This document shows positions 15,310 through 29,758 of a stretch of DNA of 56,085 nt, in pieces. The stretch is from Campylobacterales bacterium (GTDB lineage Bacteria > Campylobacterota > Campylobacteria > Campylobacterales > JALSKU01): positions 1-56,085 of the forward strand of contig JAMOOV010000043.1 of the NCBI GenBank assembly GCA_027065125.1, written 5' to 3'. The position numbers and the translations under genes are program-made. Within the stretch, counting starts at the first letter, position 1; each line of letters opens with the position of its first letter. Below the pieces are notes generated by a model, which was given only the letters and a program-made list of their open reading frames with translations, did not search any database and was not told the origin of the DNA.

Positions 15310-16305
15310 ATGTCTTGTAAAAAACTTTATTTTCAATTATTCTCTTTTTTAGCTTTGTTAGTTTTTGTTGGAGGTTGTGCAAAAACACAAGAGGAAAAAG
15401 AACTCAAAAAAACCGAAAATAATATCAGTATCAGGATAGAAGGAGCTGTGTTTCCATATAAAAAGCAAGATATCATATCGTCCGTAGCCGGATATGTGGA
15501 AGATATCTATGTCAAAAACGGAGATAGAGTAAAAAAGGGAGATAAGATCTACTCTCTCGATAAAGAGTTGATTCAATTGGATATAGACAATAAAAAGATG
15601 GAGATAGTCTCCCTAAAGCAGATAAGAGATCACTTAATGAACAAAAGTAGTGTTGATGGAAGTGTTCCGGCGATCAATCTTGCGGCAATGGAGCTTAAAA
15701 AAGTGGCACTTCTTAGAGCCAAAGGTTATGCAAATGAGTTTGAAGAAAACAAGTATAAAAAGAATTATATAAACACCCTTAATAGCGGCAACAATAGCAA
15801 CAATTACGAAAAAATAAAAAATCTAAACAAACAGATAACAACTGCCGAAATAGATCTTAAAAAGTTGAAATATAAGTTAAAGCATGCGGATGCTTATGCA
15901 CAAATAGATGGATTTGTGGCCGATTTTCATCTCAATAAAAGGGAATCTATAGGAGTAAATAGAAAAATATGTACTATTGTTGATCTTGATAAAGTTATTG
16001 TCAAGGCCGGTTTTTCCACTGGACTATTGCCTTTTATATATAAAGGGGAACAAATAAGTATAAATTTCGTAACTACACCTCCATATAACACTTCATCCAC
16101 TATAACTCAAGTCAATCCTATAGTCAATCCTTCATTCGATAGAATGACCATAGAGACCGTTATACCGAATAAAAGTTATATATTACAAGAGGGGACAAGA
16201 GCTTTAGTAACAATTCCGTTATCCAAAAAGGGGCAAGAAGAGGTTAGAAAATATTTTCTCAACAATAAAAAAGATACAACACTTGAGATAAAATCTAAAA
16301 TCTAA
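15310..16305 (+). CDS. HlyD/MFP-family efflux periplasmic adaptor lipoprotein
   Basis: Lipobox 'VGGC', lipoyl-like 'GYVEDIYVKNGDRVKKGDKIYSLD', and a coiled-coil middle region. Confidence 0.7.
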   Translation: MSCKKLYFQLFSFLALLVFVGGCAKTQEEKELKKTENNISIRIEGAVFPYKKQDIISSVAGYVEDIYVKNGDRVKKGDKIYSLDKELIQLDIDNKKMEIVSLKQIRDHLMNKSSVDGSVPAINLAAMELKKVALLRAKGYANEFEENKYKKNYINTLNSGNNSNNYEKIKNLNKQITTAEIDLKKLKYKLKHADAYAQIDGFVADFHLNKRESIGVNRKICTIVDLDKVIVKAGFSTGLLPFIYKGEQISINFVTTPPYNTSSTITQVNPIVNPSFDRMTIETVIPNKSYILQEGTRALVTIPLSKKGQEEVRKYFLNNKKDTTLEIKSKI

Positions 16306-17711
16306 TTTATCGCATTATATAGATAGACTCGACCGAGAGGAAGAGGCTGTTTTGTAAAAATATCTCTTTGAAAGTCAAGCTTTACGGTTAGAGAACTGCT
16401 TGAGCCGCTTTTTAGCCAGCTATCGTTATATGCATCATAAATGTATCTATTTTTGGGTATATATTTGGATTTGATAGTTAAAAAAATCCTATCTTTATGA
16501 GGATTTACTACAAGCACGAAACCTTTCGTATAAAATCTAACATATCCGTCTATAGCTCCTATCTTTTCATAACTCTCTCCGAGCACTTTTCCAAGATCAT
16601 AAAAATATATATCATCTCTCTCCAATCTTTTGTCAAATGTAACTTCTGCATAAACGATATTATCGGTCAATTTTGCCATAGCATAACTAAAATATATGCC
16701 GTTTTTAGGCTTTTTCAGTCTATATACGGGAAAAGAGGGATAGACCTTTTCATACTCCGGTGCAAGATAATTGAGATATATAAAGTTTTTAAATCCGCTC
16801 TTTTTATATCTTTTCTTATATTTTGTCAGCAGATTTATAAAGTGTAGTGAGTCTTTTATACCCGTCGAATCCTTATATATGGGAAAATAGTTTGTAACCT
16901 TAAAATTATCAACCCATCCTCTTCCCTCTATTCGTATCTTTTTACCACTTTTTTTATCGGTAGTTATATAGCTCTCCGTCATATCGTAAGTTATATATTT
17001 AAGCAGATATTTTTCATTTCTAAATGCTTGATTGGTTACGAAAAAAATCCCCTTATCTTTTAATTTCTTATAAAATTTTCCGACTTGTTTGACATATATC
17101 TTTTGGGGATGCCTTTTTTTAAATGTTTCGTGCATCTTTTTAAATTTTTTACTTTTTATAAAAATACCCGGTGCCCAGTCAAAAAACAATCCGTTAAATC
17201 CGCTTTTTTTCATACTTTGACAAAGATCATCCACTCTCTTATTTAAAAGATCCTCGTTGCCCCAATCGTAAAAATAGTCCCTACACCAGTCATAACCGTT
17301 CTCCTTGCAGTGTATAAAAGGACCATCAGGATTTAAAGTGGTGGTAAATCTATTTTTATAGAGCCATTTAACAAACTCCCTATTGTTTCCGCTGGTATAG
17401 TAGTAAAAAGCGGGCATCCAATCGTAACCTATATGATAGGGAATATTTAATATACCTCTTTTTTTTAGAAAATCTTTTGTTGCTTTAGGATTGTCAACTC
17501 CGCCCATTTCGACTATCTTGAACTTTTTAGCCCAATTTAAAGCATCTTGATCGCTAAGAGCGGAGACAAGAGCATAATCGCCCATTTTTTTATCTACTCT
17601 CAATCCTTTTACATCATTATACACTCTATATGAGCTTTCGTCGCTTTTAAAAGAGACCACATCTTCGCCGTAGAGAGAAAAAAGAGTAAAAAATAGTAAA
17701 AATAGCTTCAT
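16302..17711 (-). CDS. Secreted TIM-barrel glycoside hydrolase-like protein (GH114 / PelA-hydrolase-like), last gene of the EPS operon
   Basis: Signal peptide. 'SGFNGLFFDWAPG' and 'GIFFVTNQAF...YDMTESY' resemble the GFDGvfLD and xxQNg...E blocks of endo-alpha-1,4-polygalactosaminidase-type enzymes. Confidence 0.4.
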   Translation of the reverse strand: MKLFLLFFTLFSLYGEDVVSFKSDESSYRVYNDVKGLRVDKKMGDYALVSALSDQDALNWAKKFKIVEMGGVDNPKATKDFLKKRGILNIPYHIGYDWMPAFYYYTSGNNREFVKWLYKNRFTTTLNPDGPFIHCKENGYDWCRDYFYDWGNEDLLNKRVDDLCQSMKKSGFNGLFFDWAPGIFIKSKKFKKMHETFKKRHPQKIYVKQVGKFYKKLKDKGIFFVTNQAFRNEKYLLKYITYDMTESYITTDKKSGKKIRIEGRGWVDNFKVTNYFPIYKDSTGIKDSLHFINLLTKYKKRYKKSGFKNFIYLNYLAPEYEKVYPSFPVYRLKKPKNGIYFSYAMAKLTDNIVYAEVTFDKRLERDDIYFYDLGKVLGESYEKIGAIDGYVRFYTKGFVLVVNPHKDRIFLTIKSKYIPKNRYIYDAYNDSWLKSGSSSSLTVKLDFQRDIFTKQPLPLGRVYLYNAIN

Positions 17712-18610
17712 TTTTTTACCAAATCCTTTATTTTTATATCTTTTGCTACAAGAAATATATAAAACATTATAAGATCAATGCCAAATATCAATATATGATA
17801 CAGAGTCGCACTAATAAGTGCATCGGTCTTATCCACTCCATATTTTGTCAAAAAAACCACAATCGCACCCTCAAAAGTACCCACTCCCGCCGGTGTCAAA
17901 GGTACACTCAAAGCGATAGTGGAAAATATAAAAAGCTCCAATATATCTTTAAAATCAAGATTAAAATCGACACTATATTTGAAAAAGATTATATTGCTAA
18001 CAAGATAAAAAAACCATAATAGTATAGTATAGAAAAATGCGGTATACGGAGTTTTTAAAAGTCTATTGATATTTTTATATATCTTTTGCCCATAGATTTT
18101 AACTATCCTTACTGGTATCTTTTTTATCATATTTAAGACTCTTTTGGAGTTGAAAAATATGATTATTAAAAAAATTGAAGCGGAGAGAACTATTACGGAG
18201 TTTTTAACTATCTCGTTTGAAAAGTAGCAATAGACCCATAAACACATTAACAAAAATAGAACTATCACATCAAAAAATCTCTCTATAAATATGATGGATA
18301 CACTTTTGTGATAACTGTATCCGTAAAATTTTTTTAGATAAAAAGCTTTCGAAAGTTCTCCGAGCCTTGCCGGAAGCAGCATATTTAAGGTACTTGAAAC
18401 GATAATGGTCTCCAAAGATATTTTCAGATTCAAGCCGCTCATTGCCATCCATCTAAAAGATAGCACTATTTGAGATATAACGATAGAAATCGTTGTCCAA
18501 AAAACTCCCCAAAAAGAAAAAATTGTAAAATCGATTTTACCGACATCCACACCCTTTAAAAGATAGGCGACTATCGCTAAAAATATGACGGTTTGTATGA
18601 GTTTATTCAT
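17708..18610 (-). CDS. Flippase-like domain protein (UPF0104 / lysyl-phosphatidylglycerol-synthase TM-region family), copy 2
   Basis: About 8 TM helices and about 300 aa. 'PARLGELSKAFYLK' and 'PLTPAGVGTFEGA' are typical of this family. Confidence 0.6.
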   Translation of the reverse strand: MNKLIQTVIFLAIVAYLLKGVDVGKIDFTIFSFWGVFWTTISIVISQIVLSFRWMAMSGLNLKISLETIIVSSTLNMLLPARLGELSKAFYLKKFYGYSYHKSVSIIFIERFFDVIVLFLLMCLWVYCYFSNEIVKNSVIVLSASIFLIIIFFNSKRVLNMIKKIPVRIVKIYGQKIYKNINRLLKTPYTAFFYTILLWFFYLVSNIIFFKYSVDFNLDFKDILELFIFSTIALSVPLTPAGVGTFEGAIVVFLTKYGVDKTDALISATLYHILIFGIDLIMFYIFLVAKDIKIKDLVKK

Positions 18611-19355
18611 ATCTTAAAACCGTTTTGATCTTTTTTTGTGTAGAACCAAAAGAGTAAAAGGCTAAAAAATAGTCCAAATTCAAATCCGCATACTCCTTAA
18701 ATCTTTTTAAAAGATTATCTTCCAAAAGCTCATAAGGATGGATATAAAGTATGCTATCTTTACTCTTTTTAAAAAGCATTTTCAAAACGGATAGCGGCAA
18801 AACCCTCAAATAAACACCTCCGCTAAAAGGAATAGTATATTTTAGGATCGGCCTCTCCTCTATGGTACCAAATTTCGTATAAATTTTAAACGATTTTTTT
18901 CTATCTATGCTGTTTCCGTACATATAGTTTTTCATCGGAAAATATGAAGAGGAGTACTCAAAACCCACTCTCGCCAACTCTTCATAATATCTCTTTTCAA
19001 AGGGCATCGACCAACTCGGACTTCTATACCCCAAAACTCTTTCGGATATTAAATTTTCCAATATATCCTTAGCTTCAGTCACTCTTTTAGACCACTCTTT
19101 AAAACCCTCTTTATATACAAGATTATGATACATCCCATGACAAGATATCTCTACACCGTTTTTATAGAGTTTTTTTACGATTTGCGGATATTTTTTAGCA
19201 AAAGTTCCAAGAATAAATGCGGTTGCATGATGATCTTTTTTGATCGACAAAAAATCATCAACAACTTTTTCATAGTCCAAAACAGGCTCTTTTTTCCAAA
19301 GAACATTGAAGTTCATATCGGTTATCTTTTCGATATCAATAGTGAGCCAAATCAT
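18603..19355 (-). CDS. Polysaccharide deacetylase (CE4), DUF3473-containing subfamily
   Basis: 'LTIDIE' (DxE metal motif variant), 'ATAFILG', 'EISCHGMYH' and 'GYRSPSWS', plus a C-terminal block resembling DUF3473. Confidence 0.7.
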   Translation of the reverse strand: MIWLTIDIEKITDMNFNVLWKKEPVLDYEKVVDDFLSIKKDHHATAFILGTFAKKYPQIVKKLYKNGVEISCHGMYHNLVYKEGFKEWSKRVTEAKDILENLISERVLGYRSPSWSMPFEKRYYEELARVGFEYSSSYFPMKNYMYGNSIDRKKSFKIYTKFGTIEERPILKYTIPFSGGVYLRVLPLSVLKMLFKKSKDSILYIHPYELLEDNLLKRFKEYADLNLDYFLAFYSFGSTQKKIKTVLRYE

Positions 19356-20263
19356 AAATCCACCAAATATTTACAAAGTTTAGGACCTATAAAATCTACA
19401 AAATTTTTAGGAAGTTTTTTCCATACACTTGAAGCAAAAGAGTATTTTGAGTAGATATCATCATTTTGTTTTTTTAGGATATCCACTTTTACGGGATAGG
19501 CTCCAAATCTATGTTTAAATGTATATCCACCACTACCATACGGGGATCTGCCAAAGTCAAATATCTTTTTATTTCTATTGTCACAAATATCTTTTATGAT
19601 ATTCCAATATGCAAAATGTCCTACAAGTCTATCTCTATACTTTTCATCCAAACCTCCCCAAGACCCATAGGATATATCCTTATCCATCAGTACACAATAG
19701 CTTGCTATAATATTATCATTATCATACACATTATAAAAAACCACATCATCCTTATATATCTCTTTTAGTATATAAAATAGTTTTTTATCTAATGAGGGAG
19801 TCCCATGTTTATACATAATGTTTGTAAAAATTTGATAAAAATCCTCTATAAATTTTTCCTCATTGCCGATCTTAAATGAAAAATTATTTTTTCTGATAGA
19901 GTTTTTTATTATTTTTCTATATTTTGATTTCATATTTGCAAGCATCTCTTCACTGGAGCAGTTATTAAAGCACATCCTCATTGTAACGGAATCACCGTTT
20001 TGGAAGTCGCTATACTCAAAGTTTAAAACCCTTATTTGATACTCGCTCTCTTTTGCAAGCTCTTTTAAATCCTCTATCAAGTTGCTATCTCTATCGCTAT
20101 AGCCAAGTAGAGGTATGTACGATAGCATTTTACCACCGAATATTGATGGGACAATTAAAAAATCCATATACTCCTCATATCCGTACATCTCTTTTAAAAC
20201 ATTTTTGAACTTTAGTGTAAACTCTTTTGAAAAAAGATACTTTTTATCTACATTTTTTTGCAT
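19352..20263 (-). CDS. FemAB-like / BioF2-like GNAT-fold transferase
   Basis: 'SKYRKIIKNSIRKN', 'FYQIFTNIMYKHGTP' and 'FDFGRSPYGSGGYTFKHRFGAYP' match FemAB-related acyl/aminoacyl-transferase family blocks. Confidence 0.6.
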   Translation of the reverse strand: MQKNVDKKYLFSKEFTLKFKNVLKEMYGYEEYMDFLIVPSIFGGKMLSYIPLLGYSDRDSNLIEDLKELAKESEYQIRVLNFEYSDFQNGDSVTMRMCFNNCSSEEMLANMKSKYRKIIKNSIRKNNFSFKIGNEEKFIEDFYQIFTNIMYKHGTPSLDKKLFYILKEIYKDDVVFYNVYDNDNIIASYCVLMDKDISYGSWGGLDEKYRDRLVGHFAYWNIIKDICDNRNKKIFDFGRSPYGSGGYTFKHRFGAYPVKVDILKKQNDDIYSKYSFASSVWKKLPKNFVDFIGPKLCKYLVDL

Positions 20264-20570
20264 TTTTCTTTGTACTATCCCTTATGATTTTTGTTATTGC
20301 TGCATGATTTTTATTGACTCCGACATAAAGAACTATATTCATCAAACCGGTCAAAGCTACCAATATATAAATGATAAGATCTTTTCCATAACCTATACCA
20401 AAAAAGTGTGCTATTTTATCGGAATAGTCGGGAAACATGATAAATAAAAATAGTGTCATGTAGCCGGCTATCACGGTTAGTTTTTGAAATATTTTCATCT
20501 TTGATGAAAAAGAAAAGAGTATAAAAGCTATAGTCAAAACGATGATAAGAAATATTTTTAAAAAAATCAT
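20244..20570 (-). CDS. DUF2304-family small membrane protein (GT2 partner)
   Basis: 108 aa with 3-4 TM helices. It lies immediately downstream of, and overlaps by 4 nt, a soluble Dpm1-like GT2, which is the usual DUF2304 context. Confidence 0.55.
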   Translation of the reverse strand: MIFLKIFLIIVLTIAFILFSFSSKMKIFQKLTVIAGYMTLFLFIMFPDYSDKIAHFFGIGYGKDLIIYILVALTGLMNIVLYVGVNKNHAAITKIIRDSTKKNAKKCR

Positions 20571-21259
20571 TTTATTAAATTCCCCACGAAAAAGTCAAGA
20601 ACTATATTGATGCTATTCCACATAGACTGTCCCTTATTTAGAGAATAATCAGTATATCTAATGTGGCAGGGTATTTCTTTGTATCTCATGTTTAGATTTT
20701 TTATGATACCGATAATCTCGGAAGCATGAGCCATTCTATTTTGGGTTATTTCAAAATTTGGAAATTTCTCTATATTGATAGCTCTAAAGCCATTGTGAGA
20801 ATCGGTAAGCCAAATACCGGTCGTAATCCAAGTAAAAAATCTTGAAGCCTTTAGAAGATATCTTTTACTTGTCGGCATATTTTCGGTACTTCCAAGAAAT
20901 CTCGAACCCAAAACTATATCGGCTTCGCCCTCTTTTAAAACCTTTATGAAAGACTCTATATCATCAGGGTTGTGCTGACCGTCCGAATCGAATGTAACCG
21001 CATATTTACACCCAAGCTCTCTTGCATACTCTATACCGGTTTGAAGAGTGGCTCCTTGACCGAGATTGACCATATGCTTCAATAGATATATGCCCTCTAA
21101 ACATGCCTCTTTATAGCTATTGTCCGAAGAGCAATCATCTACTACGATTATCCTATATTCGGGATACTTTTCTCTTAATTCAGTTAAAACATCTTTAACT
21201 ATTTTTTCTTCATTATAAAGAGGTATAACAATAGCTACCTCATATCTATTTTTTTTCAC
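20567..21259 (-). CDS. Glycosyltransferase family 2, Dpm1/polyprenyl-phosphate-sugar synthase-like (no TM tail)
   Basis: 'VAIVIPLYNEE', 'VVDDCSSDNS' and 'TFDSDGQHNPDDI' (DxDxQH signature). Confidence 0.85.
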   Translation of the reverse strand: MKKNRYEVAIVIPLYNEEKIVKDVLTELREKYPEYRIIVVDDCSSDNSYKEACLEGIYLLKHMVNLGQGATLQTGIEYARELGCKYAVTFDSDGQHNPDDIESFIKVLKEGEADIVLGSRFLGSTENMPTSKRYLLKASRFFTWITTGIWLTDSHNGFRAINIEKFPNFEITQNRMAHASEIIGIIKNLNMRYKEIPCHIRYTDYSLNKGQSMWNSINIVLDFFVGNLIK

Positions 21260-21289: not shown

Positions 21290-22216
21290 CTAAATTAAAT
21301 CACTCTTATTTTTAAACCGATTTACATTTGATAAAACTTTATAAGTAATATGTAAAATAATCACAAAAATAATCAGAAAACCAAAATTATCCAAAAATGA
21401 AATTAAAAAAGCTGTCTCTTTAGAAATACCAACCTTTACTAGGTAGTAAACAAAAATTCCCTCTCTTATACCCAATCCAGATATAGATAGAGGAAGTAGT
21501 GTCGAGAGTGCTCCAATTACTGCTACTGCACTCAGATAAAAAAAATTTATACTTGCACCTAGTGAAAGTGCAGAAAAATAAAACTCTAAAAAATAAAAAA
21601 CATATATAAAACCATTTTGAACAAATAGGTAAAAATCAGATTTTAAACTTAAACCTTTGAAATGCTCTATTTTCAATTTAATTGATAGCTTTTTTAAAAT
21701 AGGATTTTTTACAAAGAAAAGAACAAACATGGCAGTTGTAAAGATAATAAGATATATATTTGTAGGTAATTTCAATATGAAAATAAAACTAAATATTCCT
21801 AGTAAAGCCATAAAATACAAATCTTGAAATCTATCATATATATAAGCCATAATTGACACTCTTTTCGGAATATTAGCTTGAGCTTCTAAAAATAGAATTT
21901 TAATTGATTCTCCTATACGAGAAGGTGTGATAAAACCAAAATATTGAGATTCAATCGTAGCCCCAAAAACATTAAATAGTGGAGGTTCATGCCCATAATA
22001 TTTCAATATAAAACTAAATCTATACACTTTTAAAAAAAAATAGATAAAAAAACTCATCATATGTAAAAACAGATAGAAAAAATTTATTTTTTTAAGTATA
22101 AGAAAAATTTTATCATACTGTAGTGTCGAAAGTATATATAATAAAATTATTATACCTGCAAAATGAAATATCTTTGATATTTTTTTTATATTATATGTTT
22201 TCATAACTTTATACAA
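21290..22216 (-). CDS. Flippase-like domain protein (UPF0104 / LPG-synthase TM-region family), copy 1
   Basis: About 8 TM helices. 'PSRIGESIKILFL' and 'LPLSISGLGIREG' are equivalent to the motifs in the 17708..18610 paralogue. Confidence 0.55.
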   Translation of the reverse strand: MYKVMKTYNIKKISKIFHFAGIIILLYILSTLQYDKIFLILKKINFFYLFLHMMSFFIYFFLKVYRFSFILKYYGHEPPLFNVFGATIESQYFGFITPSRIGESIKILFLEAQANIPKRVSIMAYIYDRFQDLYFMALLGIFSFIFILKLPTNIYLIIFTTAMFVLFFVKNPILKKLSIKLKIEHFKGLSLKSDFYLFVQNGFIYVFYFLEFYFSALSLGASINFFYLSAVAVIGALSTLLPLSISGLGIREGIFVYYLVKVGISKETAFLISFLDNFGFLIIFVIILHITYKVLSNVNRFKNKSDLI

Positions 22217-22267
22217 ATTATTTTTAAAATTACTTTTATAAAATGCCGAAAACCATAAAGATATATT

Positions 22268-23152
22268 CTAATCACGATGAATTATCTCCATCCTGATATT
22301 ATTAATCTGCTCGGCAAGAAGTGCAGATATAAAAAGTATAACTGAATTTGACAGAAGAAAAACTGTAGTATTGGTAAGATTGATATGATATAAATCTACA
22401 CAAAATGAACCCAACCCTAATGTCCCAAATACAATACTAAGAGGCAAAACAACTCTTAGTGGTTTAAAAATCATTCCCAATTCTAAAATTTTTAAAATGG
22501 TTCTAAAACCAGTTTTCATACTTACTTGACTCTCCCCTGTTGTTCTTTTTTGAACATTTATAGGAATATATATCAAATCGTATCCGTTGGATATATATGC
22601 CAAAGTTATAGATGTGGTAAAACTAAACCTCTCGGAGCAAAGATGTAAAAATTTTTTAGCCTCTTTTTTACTAAACACTCTAAAACCGGAATTTATATCC
22701 GGTATCTCCTGTTTGAAGATAAAATTGGCAATCTTGTGAAGCAAAATCTTTCCCAAAACTCTGCTTACTTTTGTCTGATAAACTTTTCTCTCTCCTATAA
22801 CCATGCTCTCTTTGCTCTCATAAGCATCCAACAGCTTGGGTATCTCTTCGGGTCTGTGCTGACCGTCCGAATCCATTATGACTATAGTATCATATTTTGC
22901 ACTCTTAATACCTGTTTTTAATGCTCCTCCATATCCTCTGTTTTTTTTATGGTGAATAACCGTTATACCGTCAAAATTGTCTAAAATTTCAGGACTTTTA
23001 TCTGCAGACTTATCATCAACACATACTATCTCATACTCATATTGCTTAGAATCCAAAAAACTTTTTAAACTCTCCAAAGTCATCTCAAGAGACGACTCTT
23101 CATTATGCACTGGTATAACTATACTAAACTGTTTTTTCATCTTTTTCATCAT
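22268..23152 (-). CDS. Glycosyltransferase family 2, GtrB/ArnC/CsbB-like, with two C-terminal TM helices
   Basis: 'FSIVIPVHNEE', 'CVDDKSADKS' and 'IMDSDGQHRPEEIPKL', plus C-terminal hydrophobic segments. Confidence 0.85.
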   Translation of the reverse strand: MMKKMKKQFSIVIPVHNEESSLEMTLESLKSFLDSKQYEYEIVCVDDKSADKSPEILDNFDGITVIHHKKNRGYGGALKTGIKSAKYDTIVIMDSDGQHRPEEIPKLLDAYESKESMVIGERKVYQTKVSRVLGKILLHKIANFIFKQEIPDINSGFRVFSKKEAKKFLHLCSERFSFTTSITLAYISNGYDLIYIPINVQKRTTGESQVSMKTGFRTILKILELGMIFKPLRVVLPLSIVFGTLGLGSFCVDLYHINLTNTTVFLLSNSVILFISALLAEQINNIRMEIIHRD

Positions 23153-24659
23153 CTTTATCTCTCTTCAGCGATTTTGCTTTAATCTTCATCACTTTTATTT
23201 TTATGGATTTTTCAGCCTCCAAAAAAACATTTACCAAAATAGGACTAAACATCTTATTTTCCGATTTTTTTATCTCTGCCACCGCTTCCTCATGAGTTCT
23301 ACCTTTTCTATAAGATCTGTCACTTGTTATTCCTGCATAAAACTCCCCCATAGCTACAACTTGAGAGGATATAGGTATTTGAGACTCTTTAAGCCCGAAA
23401 GGATATCCTCTTCCGTCAAATCTCTCGTGATGATACTTTATGATATCGGATATCGGATATATATGAGATATCGGCTCAACCATAATACTTCCTATCAATG
23501 GATGCTCTTTTATGAGATTTATATCAGACTCTTTTAAATCACTCCTATCTAAAACCGCAAGCAAATCCCCTACCATTCCTATATCATGGAGATAAGAACC
23601 AAGCATTATGGCATCTATCTCCTCTTCGGATAAAAATAGGGATTTTGCTATCTCTACAGAAACCATTTGAACAATCAAAGAGTGGTTTTCATAATATTTA
23701 TTTTCAAGCTCAACCGCTTCATTGGTAAAATTCAATAAAGAGAGATAATTTTTCACCATTTCGCTATTTTTATCTATATTTTCTATAAAAGCTCCCGACA
23801 TATCAAGAAATGAGCCGACTTGAGACAATGTCGTGGCAGACAAAGGTTTATTGTCATAAAATTCAAGCTTGTATGGAGTATTTCTTATATAAAATACTTT
23901 TTGAAGTTCCGATCTCAAAGAGGGTTTATATTCAAAGATCAAATCTCCGCCTTTTGTAAGAAGTCTGGCTCCTTTAGCTTTAGTCATTTTCAACACAAGA
24001 GCAACAAAAAACTTAAAAAATTGATATTTATCCATCTGCAATTTCATAAGAGAAATCGAAGTATCTTTCGTAACATTCAAAAGCATTTGAGAACCTTTTG
24101 ATCTATTTTTATCGGATGCTTTTGCATAAAAGCCTAAAATTATCCTAAAAAATCCCTCATATCTCTCTTTTATCACCTCTTGATAGCTATAGAAAAGTAT
24201 CATATATTTTTCATTTTCTCCGGTAAAATAACTTATTTCAAATTTGCCACTTTTTTTAAATGTTTTTAAATCCTTTTGTCTTAATCTTACCGGTATCGCT
24301 ACAAATGAGTTGTTTGTGGTATCCGATTCGAGTAAAATATATGTTTCTCCTCTCAACTCGTAAAGAGCCGAATATTCTGCCTTGATCATTTTATTGCTTT
24401 TTAATATATAATTTTCGATATCTTTAATATCGGATTTAAGGCTCAACTCTTTTAAATACTTGTTAATAGTTCTAAATTCCAATTTTAATTTCAGATTAAC
24501 TCTAAAATATTTCATATTTAGTATAATCATCAGTATAGAAAAAATAAAAAATACCCACCAATACCGATTTAAAAAGTCATTTATCTGTTCTAAATTTGAC
24601 AATATAATATCAGGTAAAACATAATTAAAATAGTATCTACTTTGTTCAAAAAAAGTCAT
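23124..24659 (-). CDS. Membrane-anchored HD-GYP domain protein (putative c-di-GMP phosphodiesterase/receptor)
   Basis: One N-terminal TM helix, an uncharacterised (GAF-like?) region of about 270 aa, then 'YLHDIGM' and 'HHERFDGRGYPFG'. Confidence 0.85.
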   Translation of the reverse strand: MTFFEQSRYYFNYVLPDIILSNLEQINDFLNRYWWVFFIFSILMIILNMKYFRVNLKLKLEFRTINKYLKELSLKSDIKDIENYILKSNKMIKAEYSALYELRGETYILLESDTTNNSFVAIPVRLRQKDLKTFKKSGKFEISYFTGENEKYMILFYSYQEVIKERYEGFFRIILGFYAKASDKNRSKGSQMLLNVTKDTSISLMKLQMDKYQFFKFFVALVLKMTKAKGARLLTKGGDLIFEYKPSLRSELQKVFYIRNTPYKLEFYDNKPLSATTLSQVGSFLDMSGAFIENIDKNSEMVKNYLSLLNFTNEAVELENKYYENHSLIVQMVSVEIAKSLFLSEEEIDAIMLGSYLHDIGMVGDLLAVLDRSDLKESDINLIKEHPLIGSIMVEPISHIYPISDIIKYHHERFDGRGYPFGLKESQIPISSQVVAMGEFYAGITSDRSYRKGRTHEEAVAEIKKSENKMFSPILVNVFLEAEKSIKIKVMKIKAKSLKRDKDDEKDEKTV

Positions 24660-26851
24660 TTTTTAAGCCTTTCCATTTTTGATTGAAAATTTAGCTTTTT
24701 TAAACGATTTACATATTTGCTATTGTCTATTTCATAAACCGTTACTGTTTTTGTTTTATAGTATACCCTAATATTACTGTGATTTACACTATATATAGCT
24801 ATCCAGCTTTTTAAACCACTTTGTACTTCACTTCTCCACCTATAATACCACTCCCCTTTTCCCTCATAGGGATTTGGAAAATTTTCTACAAATATATAAA
24901 TTTTTGGAGTTGGAATTTTTAGATATTTATCACTCGGATTATATTTTAAAAGAAAATTTTGAGTATTGACATGGTATCCCTTGTTTCTTACTTTTGAATA
25001 TTCTTGAATATAAGACACGACAGTCCAATCAAAAGGTCTGTTGTCAGAGTTTATTTTTAGAATGATATCTGAAATAGAGGTATATTCCAACTGGTTGATG
25101 CTTTTCCAAAAAAAGTTGGTATCTACCCATCTTGGAACTGTTAAAATAAATATAATAAAAATGACATAAGAGACAAATAATATAAAATATTTTGCATATT
25201 TTTTAAATAGCAAGAAAATAGGATAGCAAAAAAGATAAAAAAAGTAAAAAGCAAGTAATAAAGTTATTCCAAAAAACATATATTCTGCCAATCTGCTTTG
25301 TTTTGCCACTAAAGGCAATCCAAAGTTTGGTCCAAAATATGGAATAAAAATTCCTATGATTATCAAAACATATGATGTGTTAATAAATTTTTTTTTAGTA
25401 AACCAAGAAAAGATATAAGAAAAAAATATCATTACAAAAAAAGTAAAATGCAATCTTGTTATAGTGATTATGGCGATATTGTTTGTGCCCATTTTTGCTA
25501 TATCATTTATGTTTCTCTCTGTGCCTAAAAGCTTATCTAAAAAGGGAGCTGCCGCACCAAAGTCTTGAGGAATACCATATTTTATCATGGATAGTATCCA
25601 TAAATTGCCAATTATGGCAGCTATAATTATACAAAAAAAACCTTTCTTTAGTATGGGGATGTCAATTTTTCTAAAAATTACTGCATTTATTGCAATTAAA
25701 ATACTAATTATAATCAATATTATTGCTCCGCCACCATGAAAAGTAAAAACCAATATTAGTGTTAAAGTATATAAAATTAAGTACTTATTTAAGCGAGTAT
25801 CTATTGCTTTGATTAAAAAATATGCATTTAAAAGAACAAAAACTGAAGCATGTTCATAAGCTAAACCTGATGTATACCTTAAATATGGGACATTTCCACT
25901 TTTGTATATGTGACCTACTAAACTATTTATTGGTGGAAAATATATTTTTAAACCGTAAAAATCAATTAAAGGAGGTTTGTCGGTAACTATAATGCTTCCC
26001 AATATAAAATCTGATAGAGGACTCATTAAAACAATACCATGAATCATAACAGCAAAAATTCCAACATATTTTGAATTGCTAAAACTTTTAACAATATAAA
26101 AAATTGAAAAATACATTGCCAACAATAATAAAATTGGATACAAGCTAAATAAAATTATCAAGTCTATATTCGTAAAAACATTTACGAAAAATATAATAAT
26201 AGCCTGTCCATAAAAATCTGCACTTATTCTATTGCCTGAAAATAGTATATTGTGTTGTAGGTTGTTTACCCATTCTATAAATTGTGAGGTATCTGGGAGA
26301 GGGTTGCTATAACTATAAAGACCCCTTAACATAAGGGTTGAAATGATATAAAAAAAAACAGTAAAAAATAGCAAATTTTTTAACATAGAATAAAAGGTTA
26401 AAGATTGTTGAAACTTGATGAATTTATATTTTACATAACTTAAACTTTTCTCTTTTAGTTTGCTACGATGATCTAAAAAATCTAATACCCAAAGCATCAT
26501 GTTCACTCTAAAATTATTTAAAAACAATATTATATTTTTTTTATAATACCACTTTAAAAAAGCTAATTTTGTGCCAATTAGAACAAGCATAAAAAGAAGC
26601 AAAGAAAATGCTTTTATAAAAACTAAAAAAGTTACTACAGTTTCCACATATGCAACCATAAATATAAAATTAAAAACTATCTTTTGGATACCTTGTCCTG
26701 TATGTTCTTGAGGAAATATTTTTGTGGGTACCCAGTAAAACATCACATAGCTCATAAATAATATTTTAAGCATATACCACCAGTTTTTTGCAAAAATATG
26801 GTAAATAATATTTAAATCTATAAAATATACATCAAAAGCATGTGTAAACAT
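24656..26851 (-). CDS. Large polytopic membrane protein (about 16 TM plus a C-terminal soluble domain of about 150 aa); possible GT-C-type glycosyltransferase or polymerase
   Basis: The ORF is long and translationally coupled (ATGA overlap). The function is inferred only from topology and neighbours; I recognise no diagnostic motif. Confidence 0.35.
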   Translation of the reverse strand: MFTHAFDVYFIDLNIIYHIFAKNWWYMLKILFMSYVMFYWVPTKIFPQEHTGQGIQKIVFNFIFMVAYVETVVTFLVFIKAFSLLLFMLVLIGTKLAFLKWYYKKNIILFLNNFRVNMMLWVLDFLDHRSKLKEKSLSYVKYKFIKFQQSLTFYSMLKNLLFFTVFFYIISTLMLRGLYSYSNPLPDTSQFIEWVNNLQHNILFSGNRISADFYGQAIIIFFVNVFTNIDLIILFSLYPILLLLAMYFSIFYIVKSFSNSKYVGIFAVMIHGIVLMSPLSDFILGSIIVTDKPPLIDFYGLKIYFPPINSLVGHIYKSGNVPYLRYTSGLAYEHASVFVLLNAYFLIKAIDTRLNKYLILYTLTLILVFTFHGGGAIILIIISILIAINAVIFRKIDIPILKKGFFCIIIAAIIGNLWILSMIKYGIPQDFGAAAPFLDKLLGTERNINDIAKMGTNNIAIITITRLHFTFFVMIFFSYIFSWFTKKKFINTSYVLIIIGIFIPYFGPNFGLPLVAKQSRLAEYMFFGITLLLAFYFFYLFCYPIFLLFKKYAKYFILFVSYVIFIIFILTVPRWVDTNFFWKSINQLEYTSISDIILKINSDNRPFDWTVVSYIQEYSKVRNKGYHVNTQNFLLKYNPSDKYLKIPTPKIYIFVENFPNPYEGKGEWYYRWRSEVQSGLKSWIAIYSVNHSNIRVYYKTKTVTVYEIDNSKYVNRLKKLNFQSKMERLKK

Positions 26852-28180: not shown

Positions 28181-29758
28181 CTAAAAAGACGAATAATAGT
28201 AAAAATCTAATTTTTTAAACATTGTAGCAGCATAATTAAAACTTAACCACCAAAATAAAACACTACCTACAAGCAGACCAAATACGGCAAATTCAAGTCC
28301 GAACATTCTACTAAAAATTACACCTATGACAATATTTACAAATGTAGCCAACGAAATCGACTTTAACGAAAAATTTTGTCTCGAAAATGAAAATATAAAC
28401 AGAACATTCATCAATCCGTTAACCAAAAAAGCATAAGATACAGCCCCAATCCAATATACAAACGGAGTATAACTATTAAAAAAGTTTTCGATATACTCAA
28501 AATTAAAAAATTTATGAATAATCCATATAGATAGGAAAACTACGATAATAATAGCAATCGAAAAAAATAGATATACAAAATTGAATTTTTTAAAGAAAGT
28601 AAAAACACTATTGTTAAATTTAAGATATTCATTATACTTAAATGAGATGATCATATCGTTTATTCGATACATAAATTCATGTATGCTTATCTCTGTAAAT
28701 CCCATAAGTAACACCAAAGATATAAGTGCCCAATCAAGCCCAAGCTCATAAGGAACATCAAACCATATAAAATATGGTTTTGCTTCTACATTGGTGCTCC
28801 AAGCTGTTATCCTGTCTGCGACAAGAAAGATAAAATACATCAATCCGTACATATAAAACGGTATCAAAGAGTAAAAAAGTATGGAAGCTCTTGGTGTTCC
28901 CTCGCCCTCGGCAATAACATTTTTTTTCAAACCTCTAACTTTTTTATAAGCGAAAAATGAGAGCACTGTGTTTAAAATAACAAGAGCGATAAATTGTGCT
29001 TCGGGAAGTTTTATTTTAAAAAGAGAGTGAACAATGTAAACAAGAATTATACCAAGTAGAAAAAAGTATAAAATTTTCATATACTCTTCAAACATATAAT
29101 AAATCGATATATTTAAAAATAAAAATGATAGTAAAAAATAAAAAGCTATCAAGATAAAAAAATAGTAAGTAGGTAAAACATCAAAAAAAAAGTTAAACAG
29201 CATCAATATAATCCCTACGGCAAAAACAAGAATAAAACCAACATTCACCAAAACTATTGTAACATTTGAAGCAAGTATGGTTTCACTCTGCTTTAGATAA
29301 AACAGACCTTTTCTTCCTATAGCTTGAGCGGAAGCTCCGGTAACTATAAGAGCTAAAAAAGTTCCGAGAGCTATAACCGTAGCTTTTGATTTATCAAGAT
29401 TGATACCTGACCATATGGCATAACCTATGGAAAGAGTAAAAAATATTTGCACGAACATAGGCATAGCAAATGCCAATCCTCTAATATAGTTTTTTACAAC
29501 TCTTTTGCCAAAAGCCGGTAACTCCTCCCACTCTACAAGCTTTTTAGATGGATACTTTTTGATATCCTTATATCTCATAAGATATTTAGCCATCTCAAAA
29601 ACATTTTTAAAACCGTAATCTTTTTGGACATCAATATCTCTAATGCCATATATCTCAAGCAAGGCGGCAATCTCCCAAAAATCCAAAGGTTTACCTTTGT
29701 TTTCGGTTATCTTTTTATAAAGTATGCTTAGATCTTGACTGTTGCCGTCTGTTGCCAC
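28181..29758 (-). CDS. 12-TM PelG-like (MOP-type) membrane protein with a cytoplasmic N-terminal extension of about 95 aa
   Basis: I count 12 hydrophobic helices. It sits directly downstream of a PelF-like gene (31-nt overlap), as pelG does. Sequence-level identity to PelG is not verified. Confidence 0.45.
   Translation of the reverse strand: MATDGNSQDLSILYKKITENKGKPLDFWEIAALLEIYGIRDIDVQKDYGFKNVFEMAKYLMRYKDIKKYPSKKLVEWEELPAFGKRVVKNYIRGLAFAMPMFVQIFFTLSIGYAIWSGINLDKSKATVIALGTFLALIVTGASAQAIGRKGLFYLKQSETILASNVTIVLVNVGFILVFAVGIILMLFNFFFDVLPTYYFFILIAFYFLLSFLFLNISIYYMFEEYMKILYFFLLGIILVYIVHSLFKIKLPEAQFIALVILNTVLSFFAYKKVRGLKKNVIAEGEGTPRASILFYSLIPFYMYGLMYFIFLVADRITAWSTNVEAKPYFIWFDVPYELGLDWALISLVLLMGFTEISIHEFMYRINDMIISFKYNEYLKFNNSVFTFFKKFNFVYLFFSIAIIIVVFLSIWIIHKFFNFEYIENFFNSYTPFVYWIGAVSYAFLVNGLMNVLFIFSFSRQNFSLKSISLATFVNIVIGVIFSRMFGLEFAVFGLLVGSVLFWWLSFNYAATMFKKLDFYYYSSF

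What the first reader, a model, noticed from the sequence alone, without database searches (positions are those of the whole stretch)
18603..20263. FemAB-like transferase coupled to a DUF3473-type CE4 deacetylase: possible deacetylate-then-reacylate (or aminoacylate) step
The two genes overlap by 4 nt. As far as I recall, this same pairing is a conserved but functionally unassigned signature of PEP-CTERM/exosortase EPS loci in TIGRFAMs: a FemAB-related protein plus a polysaccharide deacetylase of the DUF3473 subfamily. No PEP-CTERM or exosortase components are visible here. FemAB/FemX enzymes and the synthase domain of MprF use aminoacyl-tRNA as donor. This operon also encodes two free-standing copies of the MprF-type flippase domain. 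GT2 plus deacetylase plus flippase plus polytopic transferase also mirrors the ArnC/ArnD/ArnEF/ArnT (and Lgm/Flm-NaxD) logic for making amino-sugar modifications. A free amine generated by the deacetylase could be re-derivatised by the FemAB-like enzyme.
Basis: inference. Interest (0 to 1): 0.6.

Follow-up and report, generated by a model that had tools for sequence, protein, structure and literature searches.

The report
Amino-sugar deacetylase plus Fem-type transferase pair
Two overlapping genes in a sulfur-vent-type Campylobacterota genome most likely strip the acetyl group from a lipid-carried amino sugar and put an amino acid (or another acyl group) in its place. The edited sugar is then flipped outward and grafted onto a surface polymer, a variant of a published but little-studied pathway.

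Summary
A 303-aa FemAB-like double-GNAT gene (19352-20263, minus) overlaps a 250-aa CE4/DUF3473 deacetylase gene (18603-19355, minus) by ATGA. Their best NCBIfam hits are the XrtA/PEP-CTERM pair models TIGR03019 and TIGR03006. Both score under half the cut-off, and the genome has no exosortase.

The pair is co-located in 31 of 34 informative related loci. It usually sits with a PF03706 (MprF-type) flippase-like gene, a PpgS/GacI-like GT2 and a GacJ-like DUF2304 gene. A 731-aa protein in the operon folds as a GT-C transferase.

The FemAB-like model matches only aminoacyl-tRNA transferases at the top (FemX Z 19.6; Sba18/Sbb17 Z 18.9). It keeps the catalytic Lys (K250 = FemX K305) and lacks a conserved CoA P-loop.

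VimE/VimA of Porphyromonas and Tannerella (PMC7468200) is a published deacetylate-then-aminoacylate pair, and VimA matches TIGR03019.

Best reading: an Arn-like lipid-carrier module makes polyprenyl-P-HexN-aminoacyl to decorate a Pel-like polymer. The donor (aa-tRNA or acyl-CoA), the sugar and the acceptor are inferred.

This scan already reported the same system in another Campylobacterota genome (e1-2106255). I class it as a new variant of a known kind.

The parts
19352..20263 (-). FemAB-like double-GNAT transferase (P0002, 303 aa), cytoplasmic
   Evidence: PF13480, PF04339; TIGR03019 116.7 bits, below cut-off. AF2 pLDDT 94. VIA Z 19.6 to FemX, 18.9 to Sba18/Sbb17, 17.6 to FemA. The family profile hits FemX at E 6e-10, with K250 aligned to FemX K305. 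K250 is invariant in 69/69 sequences and there is no conserved CoA P-loop.
18603..19355 (-). CE4 (NodB) deacetylase with DUF3473 C-terminal domain (P0001, 250 aa); no signal peptide
   Evidence: PF01522, PF11959; TIGR03006 123.5 bits, below cut-off. D7, E9, H73, H77, R111, H206 are invariant in 21 orthologues. H73/H77 and R111 align with the His-His and Arg motifs of solved CE4 enzymes.
20567..21259 (-). GT2, PpgS/GacI-like polyprenyl-phosphate HexNAc synthase candidate (230 aa)
   Evidence: PF00535. Best NCBIfam hit is NF058614 PpgS at 205.8 bits, cut-off 370. Co-conserved with the pair.
20244..20570 (-). DUF2304 small membrane protein (GacJ/Rv3632-like activator of the GT2)
   Evidence: PF10066 46.1 bits, above the cut-off of 25.5. 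GacJ and Rv3632 stimulate GacI and PpgS (bioRxiv 10.1101/180810).
17708..18610 (-). PF03706 (MprF-type TM/flippase-like) protein A, 300 aa
   Evidence: PF03706 118.5 bits; TIGR00374 flippase-like. Sits next to the pair in nearly all related loci.
21290..22216 (-). PF03706 flippase-like protein B, 308 aa (second module)
   Evidence: PF03706 98.1 bits. Present only in same-genus loci L012, L013 and L022.
22268..23152 (-). Second GT2 (294 aa), ArnC/AglJ/PgfS-like
   Evidence: PF00535 122.6 bits; weak NCBIfam hits to AglJ, PgfS and ArnC.
24656..26851 (-). 731-aa polytopic GT-C-fold glycosyltransferase candidate (P0123)
   Evidence: No Pfam or NCBIfam hit. AF2 pLDDT 76. The top 42 VIA rows are all GT-C enzymes (STT3 Z 17.5; ArnT Z 16.8, rmsd 5.9, 423 aligned); the next fold scores Z 6.7.
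16302..17711 (-). Secreted 469-aa protein (P0122), possible GHL15/TIM-barrel glycoside-hydrolase-like
   Evidence: A signal-peptide-like N-terminus can be read from the sequence. No Pfam hit. Atlas feature search gives GHL15 at 0.95, a lead only.
28181..31245 (-). PelF (GT4 with DUF3492) and a PelG-like 12-TM protein: the likely synthase of the polymer that is decorated
   Evidence: NF038011 PelF 169.3 bits, above the cut-off of 100. PelG match is weak, 18.7 bits. Co-conserved with the module.
23124..24659 (-). HD-GYP-type phosphodiesterase-like protein inside the operon
   Evidence: PF13487 76.4 bits; NF053512 c-di-GMP phosphodiesterase-like 112.5 bits, below cut-off.

Best explanation
The pair is a diverged VimE/VimA-type (TIGR03006/TIGR03019-related) cytoplasmic amino-sugar N-deacetylase plus Fem-type N-aminoacyl transferase. 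It is built into an Arn-like lipid-carrier sugar-editing module.

Proposed order of events:
1. The PpgS/GacI-like GT2, helped by the GacJ-like DUF2304 protein, makes polyprenyl-phosphate-HexNAc on the inner leaflet.
2. The CE4/DUF3473 enzyme removes the N-acetyl group.
3. The FemAB-like enzyme acylates the freed amine, most likely with an amino acid taken from aminoacyl-tRNA.
4. A PF03706 (MprF-type) protein flips the lipid.
5. The 731-aa GT-C enzyme transfers the modified sugar to an envelope acceptor, probably the Pel-like polymer made by the co-conserved PelF/PelG-like genes.

Shown here: gene identities, folds, conserved catalytic residues, cytoplasmic location (no signal peptides) and co-conservation.

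Inferred: the substrate being lipid-linked, the order of steps, the donor, the amino acid, the sugar and the acceptor.
For: - ATGA overlap, within a chain of overlapping genes from the GT2 to the last gene.
- Best HMM hits are the XrtA pair models.
- True TIGR03019 members are the next family found by the clade's profile, at E 1e-41 to 1e-45.
- CE4 metal-binding and catalytic residues are invariant.
- The Fem-type model (pLDDT 94) matches FemX, Sba18/Sbb17 and FemA at Z 17.6-19.6. MprF synthase domains score Z 14 or less and CoA-dependent tandem GNATs Z 12.6 or less.
- The F/Y-K dyad is conserved, with K250 aligned to catalytic K305 of FemX (review PMC12945691).
- There is no conserved Q/RxxGxG/A CoA loop: 4 of 69 sequences, at scattered positions.
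- The GT2's best hit is PpgS, and DUF2304 is the GacJ/Rv3632 family.
- The 731-aa protein has a GT-C fold.
- FemAB-like, CE4 and PF03706 stay together through three gene orders and two unrelated glycan contexts. A GT2-FemAB-PF03706-CE4 cassette also occurs in Bacteroidota.
- Precedents: VimE/VimA give 2-N-seryl or 2-N-glycyl sugars, and the amino acid follows the VimA orthologue (PMC7468200). Orf11/Sba18-type enzymes aminoacylate an amino-sugar amine from Gly-tRNA.
Against: - No biochemical data exist for any member of this clade.
- A shared fold and one conserved Lys do not prove use of aa-tRNA. PF13480 is annotated as an acetyltransferase family, and HfsK, a related EPS-linked protein, has an unknown donor (PMC5362036).
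- Both proteins score under half the equivalog cut-offs.
- Three FemAB-like orthologues (L014, L037, L044) have no CE4 or glycan genes nearby, so the transferase is not strictly tied to a deacetylase.
- In Vim, the substrate stage (nucleotide sugar or lipid) is unknown. No direct comparison with VimA or VimE sequences could be made here.
- The GT2 is below the PpgS cut-off, so the sugar is uncertain.
Confidence: 0.55

Rival explanations
1. N-acyl swap with a CoA or ACP donor. The module is the same, but the FemAB-like GNAT re-acylates the freed amine with a non-acetyl acyl group (for example a hydroxyacyl or dicarboxylic acyl group) from acyl-CoA or acyl-ACP rather than with an amino acid from tRNA.
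For: PF13480 is named an acetyltransferase (GNAT) domain. Tandem-GNAT CoA enzymes (VipF, MshD, NMT) still match at Z 10-12.6. The HfsK authors left the donor open. An earlier scan note on a related cassette favoured a hydroxyacyl group (e1-941413, untested here).
Against: The top 11 structural matches are all aa-tRNA transferases, with a gap of about 5 Z units to CoA enzymes. The CoA pyrophosphate loop motif is not conserved. The Fem catalytic F-K dyad is invariant. No acyl-CoA or ACP-generating gene lies in the operon.
Confidence: 0.25
2. The pair edits a soluble nucleotide sugar, or the nascent Pel-like chain at the cytoplasmic face, rather than a polyprenyl-phosphate monosaccharide. In this reading the GT2, flippase and GT-C genes form a separate decoration route.
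For: In the Wbp/Vim model the editing is drawn on a sugar precursor whose carrier is not established. HfsH and HfsK are thought to act on lipid-linked oligosaccharide precursors. PelF is a cytoplasmic polymerase encoded in the same operon.
Against: The pair travels with the PpgS-like GT2, DUF2304 and PF03706 even where the Pel genes are on the other strand or absent (L020, L048, L058). In G003 a second complete GT2-CE4-PF03706-FemAB set exists. ArnD, the CE4-type enzyme of the Arn pathway, acts on the lipid-linked sugar (established knowledge).
Confidence: 0.15
3. The CE4 is simply the PelA-like deacetylase of the Pel polymer, and the FemAB-like gene is a functionally unrelated neighbour.
For: Pel needs partial de-N-acetylation (established knowledge), and no PelA gene was seen in the operon.
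Against: P0001 has no signal peptide: its catalytic motif starts at residue 5. PelA acts in the periplasm. The pairing persists in loci without Pel genes and in PEP-CTERM loci.
Confidence: 0.05

Closest known systems
VimE / VimA of the Wbp/Vim pathway (Porphyromonas gingivalis, Tannerella forsythia; PMC7468200)
   Same: A CE4 deacetylase is paired with a GNAT protein that matches TIGR03019. The proposed chemistry is the same: remove the N-acetyl group, then put an amino acid on the amine. VimA determines Ser versus Gly.
   Different: Vim works on a Wbp-derived 2,3-diamino uronic acid and serves type IX secretion cargo attachment. Here there are no Wbp genes in the operon and no T9SS. Instead there is a PpgS-like GT2, DUF2304, PF03706 and a GT-C enzyme beside Pel-like genes. 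The donor is unproven in both systems.
TIGR03019 / TIGR03006 pair of XrtA (PEP-CTERM/exosortase) EPS loci
   Same: These are the best HMM hits for both proteins. They are adjacent genes in Rubrivivax, Thauera and Rhodoferax and in Nitrosomonas, Nitrosococcus and Desulfovibrio.
   Different: Scores are under half the cut-offs. The N-terminal 100 or so model positions of TIGR03019 are unmatched. No exosortase is in the genome. The proteins are about 45 aa shorter than true members.
ArnC-ArnD-ArnE/F-ArnT (lipid A aminoarabinose) and Francisella FlmF2-NaxD-FlmK
   Same: A GT2 loads an N-acylated amino sugar on undecaprenyl phosphate. A deacylase frees the amine on the cytoplasmic face. A flippase and a GT-C transferase finish the job. 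The GT-C fold was confirmed here (ArnT Z 16.8).
   Different: Those pathways stop at the free amine. Here an extra Fem-type transferase follows, the flippase candidate is PF03706 rather than ArnE/F, and the likely acceptor is a polymer, not lipid A.
FemX/FemABX and Sba18/Sbb17/Orf11 aminoacyl-tRNA transferases
   Same: Double-GNAT fold (Z 17.6-19.6) and a catalytic Lys with the preceding aromatic residue. Orf11/Sba18-type enzymes aminoacylate an amino-sugar amine.
   Different: Only 13-17% identity. The acceptor here is not a peptidoglycan precursor or an antibiotic intermediate. There is an extra conserved 35-aa C-terminal helical tail (GP[KR][LI][CT]KYLxD) that FemX lacks.
MprF (aminoacyl-phosphatidylglycerol synthase/flippase)
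   Same: A tRNA-dependent double-GNAT synthase works with a PF03706 flippase on an aminoacylated lipid. Here the two functions would be on separate proteins (a split-MprF logic).
   Different: P0002 does not hit the MprF synthase family, and its structural match is only second tier (Z 14 or less). The lipid would be a polyprenyl-phosphate sugar, not phosphatidylglycerol.
HfsH / HfsK of the Caulobacter holdfast (PMC5362036)
   Same: A cytoplasmic CE4 deacetylase and a FemX-like tandem-GNAT protein are proposed to acylate the unmasked amines of an adhesive polysaccharide. A c-di-GMP link is possible here, since an HD-GYP gene sits in the operon.
   Different: hfsK is not adjacent to hfsH, its donor and product are unknown, and no lipid-monophosphate sugar module is involved.

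Membership tests
TIGR03019 (FemAB family XrtA/PEP-CTERM system-associated protein) | Whole-protein score at or above the curated cut-off of 260.35 bits | tested here: not met
   116.7 bits, matching only model positions 102-329 of 330. True members found with the clade profile score 280-313 bits.
TIGR03019 (FemAB family XrtA/PEP-CTERM system-associated protein) | Genome encodes an exosortase (XrtA/EpsH) | tested here: not met
   PF09721 gave no match in the 100%-complete genome.
TIGR03006 (XrtA system polysaccharide deacetylase) | Whole-protein score at or above 276.2 bits | tested here: not met
   123.5 bits, model positions 36-229 of 272.
CE4 / NodB polysaccharide deacetylases (PF01522) with DUF3473 | Pfam gathering scores reached for both domains | tested here: met
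   PF01522 45.8 bits (cut-off 23.1); PF11959 48.4 bits (cut-off 29.6).
CE4 / NodB polysaccharide deacetylases (PF01522) with DUF3473 | Metal-binding His-His motif, Arg motif, and N-terminal Asp and C-terminal His catalytic residues | tested here: met
   H73, H77 and R111 are invariant and align with the HxxxH and RxP motifs of 3rxz and Bacillus PgdA structures. D7/E9 and H206 are invariant, but their roles are assigned by position only.
FemABX-type aminoacyl-tRNA transferases | Double-GNAT fold closest to FemX/FemA | tested here: met
   Z 19.6 (rmsd 3.3, 246 aligned) to 1ne9. The top 11 rows are all Fem, Sba18 or Sbb17. The profile hits FemX at E 6e-10.
FemABX-type aminoacyl-tRNA transferases | Catalytic Lys (FemX K305) preceded by an aromatic residue | tested here: met
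   K250 aligns with K305. K is present in 69/69 sequences; the preceding residue is F in 61 and Y in 8.
FemABX-type aminoacyl-tRNA transferases | Uses aminoacyl-tRNA as donor | not testable with these tools
   Needs an enzyme assay. The only indirect support is the absence of a conserved CoA loop and the structural ranking.
VimE/VimA (Wbp/Vim pathway) | Sequence orthology to P. gingivalis VimA and VimE | not tested
   No VimA or VimE sequence could be obtained with the tools. The link rests on both matching TIGR03019 or CE4. Three Bacteroidota loci examined were not the recA-vimA-vimE-vimF locus.
VimE/VimA (Wbp/Vim pathway) | Association with Wbp genes (WbpA/B/E/D) that supply a 2,3-diamino uronic acid | tested here: not met
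   None of the 18 genes between 11.6 and 33.1 kb carries those domains.
Arn-like three-component lipid-carrier glycosylation | GT2 polyprenyl-phosphate sugar synthase, flippase and GT-C transferase in one locus | tested here: met
   The GT2's best hit is PpgS and the GacJ-family partner is present. Two PF03706 genes are present. GT-C fold at Z 16.8-17.5. Activities were not assayed.
MprF | Synthase domain of the MprF family fused to PF03706 | tested here: not met
   P0002 has no MprF-synthase Pfam hit at E 0.1 or better. The genes are separate. NF033480 gives only 19.4 bits on the TM protein.

The most novel reading that the evidence does not exclude
This would be a split-MprF-like system that uses aminoacyl-tRNA to aminoacylate a polyprenyl-phosphate-linked hexosamine. 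That would be the first tRNA-dependent aminoacylation of a lipid-carrier sugar donor. The aminoacyl-sugar is flipped by a PF03706 protein and grafted by a new GT-C family onto a Pel-like exopolysaccharide. It would give the matrix a free alpha-amine that adds positive charge, or that serves, as in the Vim/T9SS case, as a covalent attachment point for proteins without any known sortase.
Probability: 0.35. Interest if true: 0.75.

Novelty: new variant of a known kind. Interest (0 to 1): 0.55.

Why it matters
If the reading is right, tRNA-dependent aminoacylation extends beyond peptidoglycan, membrane phospholipids and antibiotics to lipid-carrier sugars and biofilm polysaccharides.

It would also give a testable function to a large, uncharacterised protein family. 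The clade profile finds 3,676 cluster representatives at E 1e-10 or better, and these include the PEP-CTERM-associated pair.

It would link three lines of work: the Vim pathway of oral pathogens, Arn-type envelope modification and Pel-type matrix synthesis. It also points to culturable hosts in which it can be tested, such as Nitratiruptor tergarcus and Caminibacter pacificus.

Tried and rejected
- **Complex prediction.** FemAB-like protein with the adjacent PF03706 protein, both given as alignments: score 0.00, verdict "no answer". This is evidence neither way.
- **Single-sequence PDB search.** P0002 found nothing useful. Only the family profile reached FemX.
- **Finding the true Vim locus.** I tried to locate recA-vimA-vimE-vimF among 400 Bacteroidota genomes. 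It yielded other FemAB-like contexts (DegT-FemAB-radical SAM-CE4; FemAB-AsnB; FemAB-GT4) but no identifiable Vim locus, so direct homology to VimA and VimE is untested.
- **Literature searches.** DUF3473 (0 papers), PF13480 (1 irrelevant paper) and VimA+VimE+tRNA (swamped by vimentin papers) gave nothing. PMC3841722 (NaxD) is not held.
- **Promoter and terminator scans.** Results were at chance level.
- **Dedicated tRNA.** None lies next to the module. The only nearby tRNA is an ordinary tRNA-Pro(GGG) upstream of the operon.
- **Context of two true TIGR03019 members.** One contig was too short. The other had a PIG-L deacetylase rather than CE4 nearby.
- **Rejected idea.** I dropped the view that the 469-aa last gene is the polytopic transferase. 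It is a secreted soluble protein.
Full report
**Observation**

On the minus strand, a 303-aa ORF (19352-20263, P0002) and a 250-aa ORF (18603-19355, P0001) share the four bases ATGA. A GGTGGA box lies just upstream of the second start.

P0002 matches PF13480 and PF04339. P0001 matches PF01522 and PF11959 (DUF3473). All four are above Pfam's cut-offs.

TIGR03019 gives 116.7 bits against a cut-off of 260.35. TIGR03006 gives 123.5 bits against a cut-off of 276.2. The recall was correct as to kinship, but both proteins fail the membership thresholds.

The genome is 2.02 Mb and 100% complete. It has no exosortase and no rhombosortase. The pair is its only TIGR03019-like gene and its best TIGR03006-like gene.

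**Surroundings**

The pair sits in a chain of overlapping minus-strand genes. Annotation comes:
- PelF: NF038011, 169 bits, above cut-off.
- A PelG-like 12-TM protein.
- An OmpA-domain protein.
- A 731-aa polytopic protein.
- An HD-GYP-type protein.
- A 294-aa GT2.
- A PF03706 protein.
- A 230-aa GT2 whose best hit is the polyprenyl-phospho-GalNAc synthase PpgS (205.8 bits, cut-off 370).
- A DUF2304 protein.
- The FemAB-like gene, then the CE4 gene.
- A second PF03706 protein.
- A secreted 469-aa protein.

DUF2304 is the family of GacJ and Rv3632. These small membrane proteins bind and stimulate the GlcNAc-P-undecaprenol synthase GacI and PpgS (bioRxiv 10.1101/180810). The two PF03706 genes are the only ones in the genome.

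The 731-aa protein has no family hit. Its AlphaFold model, built on 13 orthologues (pLDDT 76), matches only GT-C glycosyltransferases in its top 42 rows. STT3 scores Z 17.5 and ArnT Z 16.8. The first non-GT-C fold scores 6.7.

The 469-aa last gene is not polytopic. It has a signal-peptide-like start and a feature-based lead to GHL15 glycoside-hydrolase-like proteins.

**Co-conservation**

Close orthologues of P0002 are rare. They occur in 3 of 10 genomes of the same genus and about 6 of 300 sampled genomes of the phylum.

I examined 35 other distinct loci from genomes and metagenomes. They include Sulfurimonas, Sulfurospirillaceae, Nitratiruptor, Caminibacter, a Chlorobiota MAG and Kapaibacteria. 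Of these, 34 have enough flank to judge.
- In 31, a CE4/DUF3473 gene lies within 3 kb of the FemAB-like gene. In nearly all of these there is also a PF03706 gene.
- Most also carry the PpgS-like GT2, DUF2304, the GT-C protein, the HD-GYP gene and PelF/PelG-like genes.

The genes keep company through several rearrangements:
- FemAB-CE4-PF03706.
- FemAB-PF03706-CE4.
- PF03706-FemAB-x-CE4, in a quite different locus with STT3/PglB, GtrA, FdtA, DegT and two AsnB-like genes (L020, L048).

A GT2-FemAB-PF03706-CE4 cassette also turns up in a Bacteroidota genome (L058). In a same-genus genome (G003) the first module is decaying: its CE4 is cut to 87 aa and its GT2 is frameshifted. A second complete GT2-CE4-PF03706-FemAB set is intact there.

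There are three exceptions, L014, L037 and L044. In these the FemAB-like gene stands beside unrelated genes: an SNF2 helicase, or a patatin-Omp85 protein and an M24 peptidase. Related genomes are not independent samples, so the counts overstate the statistics. Persistence across different gene orders and contexts is the stronger argument.

**The deacetylase**

Twenty-one orthologues keep D7, E9, H73, H77, R111, W115, H206 and E209 invariant. A profile of them aligns H73/H77 with the HxxxH metal motif of solved CE4 enzymes, and R111 with their Arg motif.

All orthologues start directly with the first catalytic strand (M-I-W-L-T-I-D-I-E). There is therefore no signal peptide, and the enzyme works in the cytoplasm. 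That differs from PelA and resembles ArnD, which is established knowledge.

**The transferase**

The AlphaFold model has pLDDT 94 and pTM 0.91. Structural matches by VIA-align fall into tiers:

| Match | Z |
|---|---|
| Weissella FemX | 19.6 |
| S. aureus FemX | 19.0 |
| Sba18/Sbb17 | 18.9 |
| FemA | 17.6 |
| MprF synthase domains | 12-14 |
| CoA-dependent tandem GNATs (VipF, MshD, NMT) | 12.6 or less |

Sba18 and Sbb17 are titled in PDB as aminoacyl-tRNA-dependent peptide synthases bound to the amino sugar streptothrisamine.

A profile of 69 family members finds FemX at E 6e-10. It places the invariant K250 on FemX K305. [quoted passage not shown] Its counterpart K329, together with the preceding F328, is needed in DhpH-C (PMC12945691). 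In this family the lysine is present in 69 of 69 sequences and the preceding residue is F or Y. The CoA pyrophosphate loop motif Q/RxxGxG/A occurs in only 4 of 69 sequences, at scattered positions.

Searching 1.84 billion representatives with the profile gives 11,694 hits at E 1e-3 or better and 3,676 at 1e-10 or better. The roughly 300-aa clade is small, at about 50 representatives. The next tier, at about 345 aa, consists of authentic TIGR03019 members scoring 280-313 bits.

P0002 is thus a shortened sister of the PEP-CTERM family with a divergent N-terminal, acceptor-side region. It also has a conserved C-terminal tail, GP[KR][LI][CT]KYLxD, that FemX lacks.

**What is known**

The pairing in PEP-CTERM loci is documented. 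The two genes are adjacent in Rubrivivax, Thauera and Rhodoferax (PMC3684757).

More important is Veith et al. 2020 (PMC7468200). They showed that T9SS cargo proteins are linked through 2-N-seryl-3-N-acetylglucuronamide in P. gingivalis and through a 2-N-glycyl sugar in T. forsythia. Swapping vimA between the species swaps Ser for Gly. VimE is a CE4 family member proposed to remove the 2-N-acetyl group first. The paper notes that VimA matches TIGR03019 and that vimA-like genes lie next to deacetylase, AsnB-like and exosortase genes in Nitrosomonas, Nitrosococcus and Desulfovibrio.

That paper does not address the donor.

HfsH/HfsK of Caulobacter is a looser precedent, and the HfsK donor is unknown (PMC5362036).

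**Mechanism proposed**

1. The GT2 with its DUF2304 partner makes polyprenyl-P-HexNAc.
2. The CE4 frees the amine.
3. The Fem-type enzyme adds an amino acid from aminoacyl-tRNA.
4. PF03706 flips the lipid.
5. The GT-C enzyme transfers the sugar to the Pel-like polymer or another envelope acceptor.

Gene identities, folds, residues, cytoplasmic location and linkage are shown here. The lipid-linked substrate, the order of steps, the donor, the amino acid, the sugar and the acceptor are inferred. I put 0.55 on the scheme as a whole and about 0.45 on aa-tRNA as the donor specifically.

The main rival is a CoA- or ACP-dependent N-acyl swap (0.25). A second rival is that the pair acts on a nucleotide sugar or on the nascent polymer (0.15). 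A plain PelA-like role for the CE4 is unlikely (0.05).

**Novelty**

The chemistry has a precedent in Vim, and the carrier logic has precedents in Arn, Francisella Flm/NaxD and GacI-L. The combination appears uncharacterised: a Fem-type step inserted into a polyprenyl-monophosphate sugar route, a PF03706 flippase (a split-MprF-like arrangement), a new GT-C family and Pel-like genes.

This scan already described the same system in another Campylobacterota genome (e1-2106255). My independent tests agree with that report. I rate it a new variant of a known kind, with interest 0.55.

**Limits**

- No direct comparison with VimA or VimE sequences was possible.
- The complex prediction gave no answer.
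- No expression data were examined.

Noticed in passing
L012:9226-11386 and L012:12206-15572 (same-genus genome G003): The first module is decaying: CE4 is cut to an 87-aa ORF and the PpgS-like GT2 is split by a frameshift. A second, intact GT2-CE4-PF03706-FemAB set (one gene convergent) sits 1-5 kb away. This looks like module replacement.
   Followed up: partly
L037:7479-12076 and L044:4073-8664 (Kapaibacteria MAGs): FemAB-like orthologues (40-43% identical) lie between a patatin-POTRA-Omp85 protein and an M24 peptidase, with no CE4 or glycan genes. They may act on a different amine, perhaps a lipid.
   Followed up: partly
L020 and L048 (metagenome contigs): The PF03706-FemAB-(DegT-like 340 aa)-CE4 set sits directly before an STT3/PglB oligosaccharyltransferase and two AsnB-like amidotransferases. 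GT2+GtrA, DUF2079, FdtA and DegT are also there, giving an N-glycosylation-like context.
   Followed up: no
window 21290-23152: The extra GT2 (294 aa) plus second PF03706 gene is present only in same-genus loci (L012, L013, L022). It is absent from Sulfurimonas, Sulfurospirillaceae, Caminibacter and Nitratiruptor versions of the operon, so it is a recent add-on module.
   Followed up: partly
window 16302-17711: The last gene of the operon encodes a secreted 469-aa protein with no Pfam hit. The protein-atlas feature search points to GHL15 (TIM-barrel glycoside-hydrolase-like), possibly the PelA-hydrolase analogue. In Nitratiruptor-type loci it is missing.
   Followed up: partly
window 23124-24659: An HD-GYP-type (c-di-GMP phosphodiesterase-like) gene is embedded in, and co-conserved with, the EPS operon. 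No PelD-like receptor was seen.
   Followed up: no
G000:C140:7583-7900 (outside the window): There is a second CE4-domain match in the genome, inside a 561-aa ORF (TIGR03006 49.9 bits). It could be the periplasmic PelA-like or peptidoglycan deacetylase.
   Followed up: no
L058 (Bacteroidota genome G517:C164): A GT2-FemAB-like-PF03706-CE4 cassette occurs in a Bacteroidota genome at 27-38% identity to the window's proteins. The four-gene set therefore crosses phyla.
   Followed up: partly
Context of P0173 (JGI 3300056388 contig, no DNA held): A true TIGR03019 member (312.6 bits) lies beside an AsnB-like gene. A PIG-L (LmbE-type) deacetylase sits 2.5 kb upstream instead of a CE4, which suggests deacetylase families can substitute for each other.
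   Followed up: no
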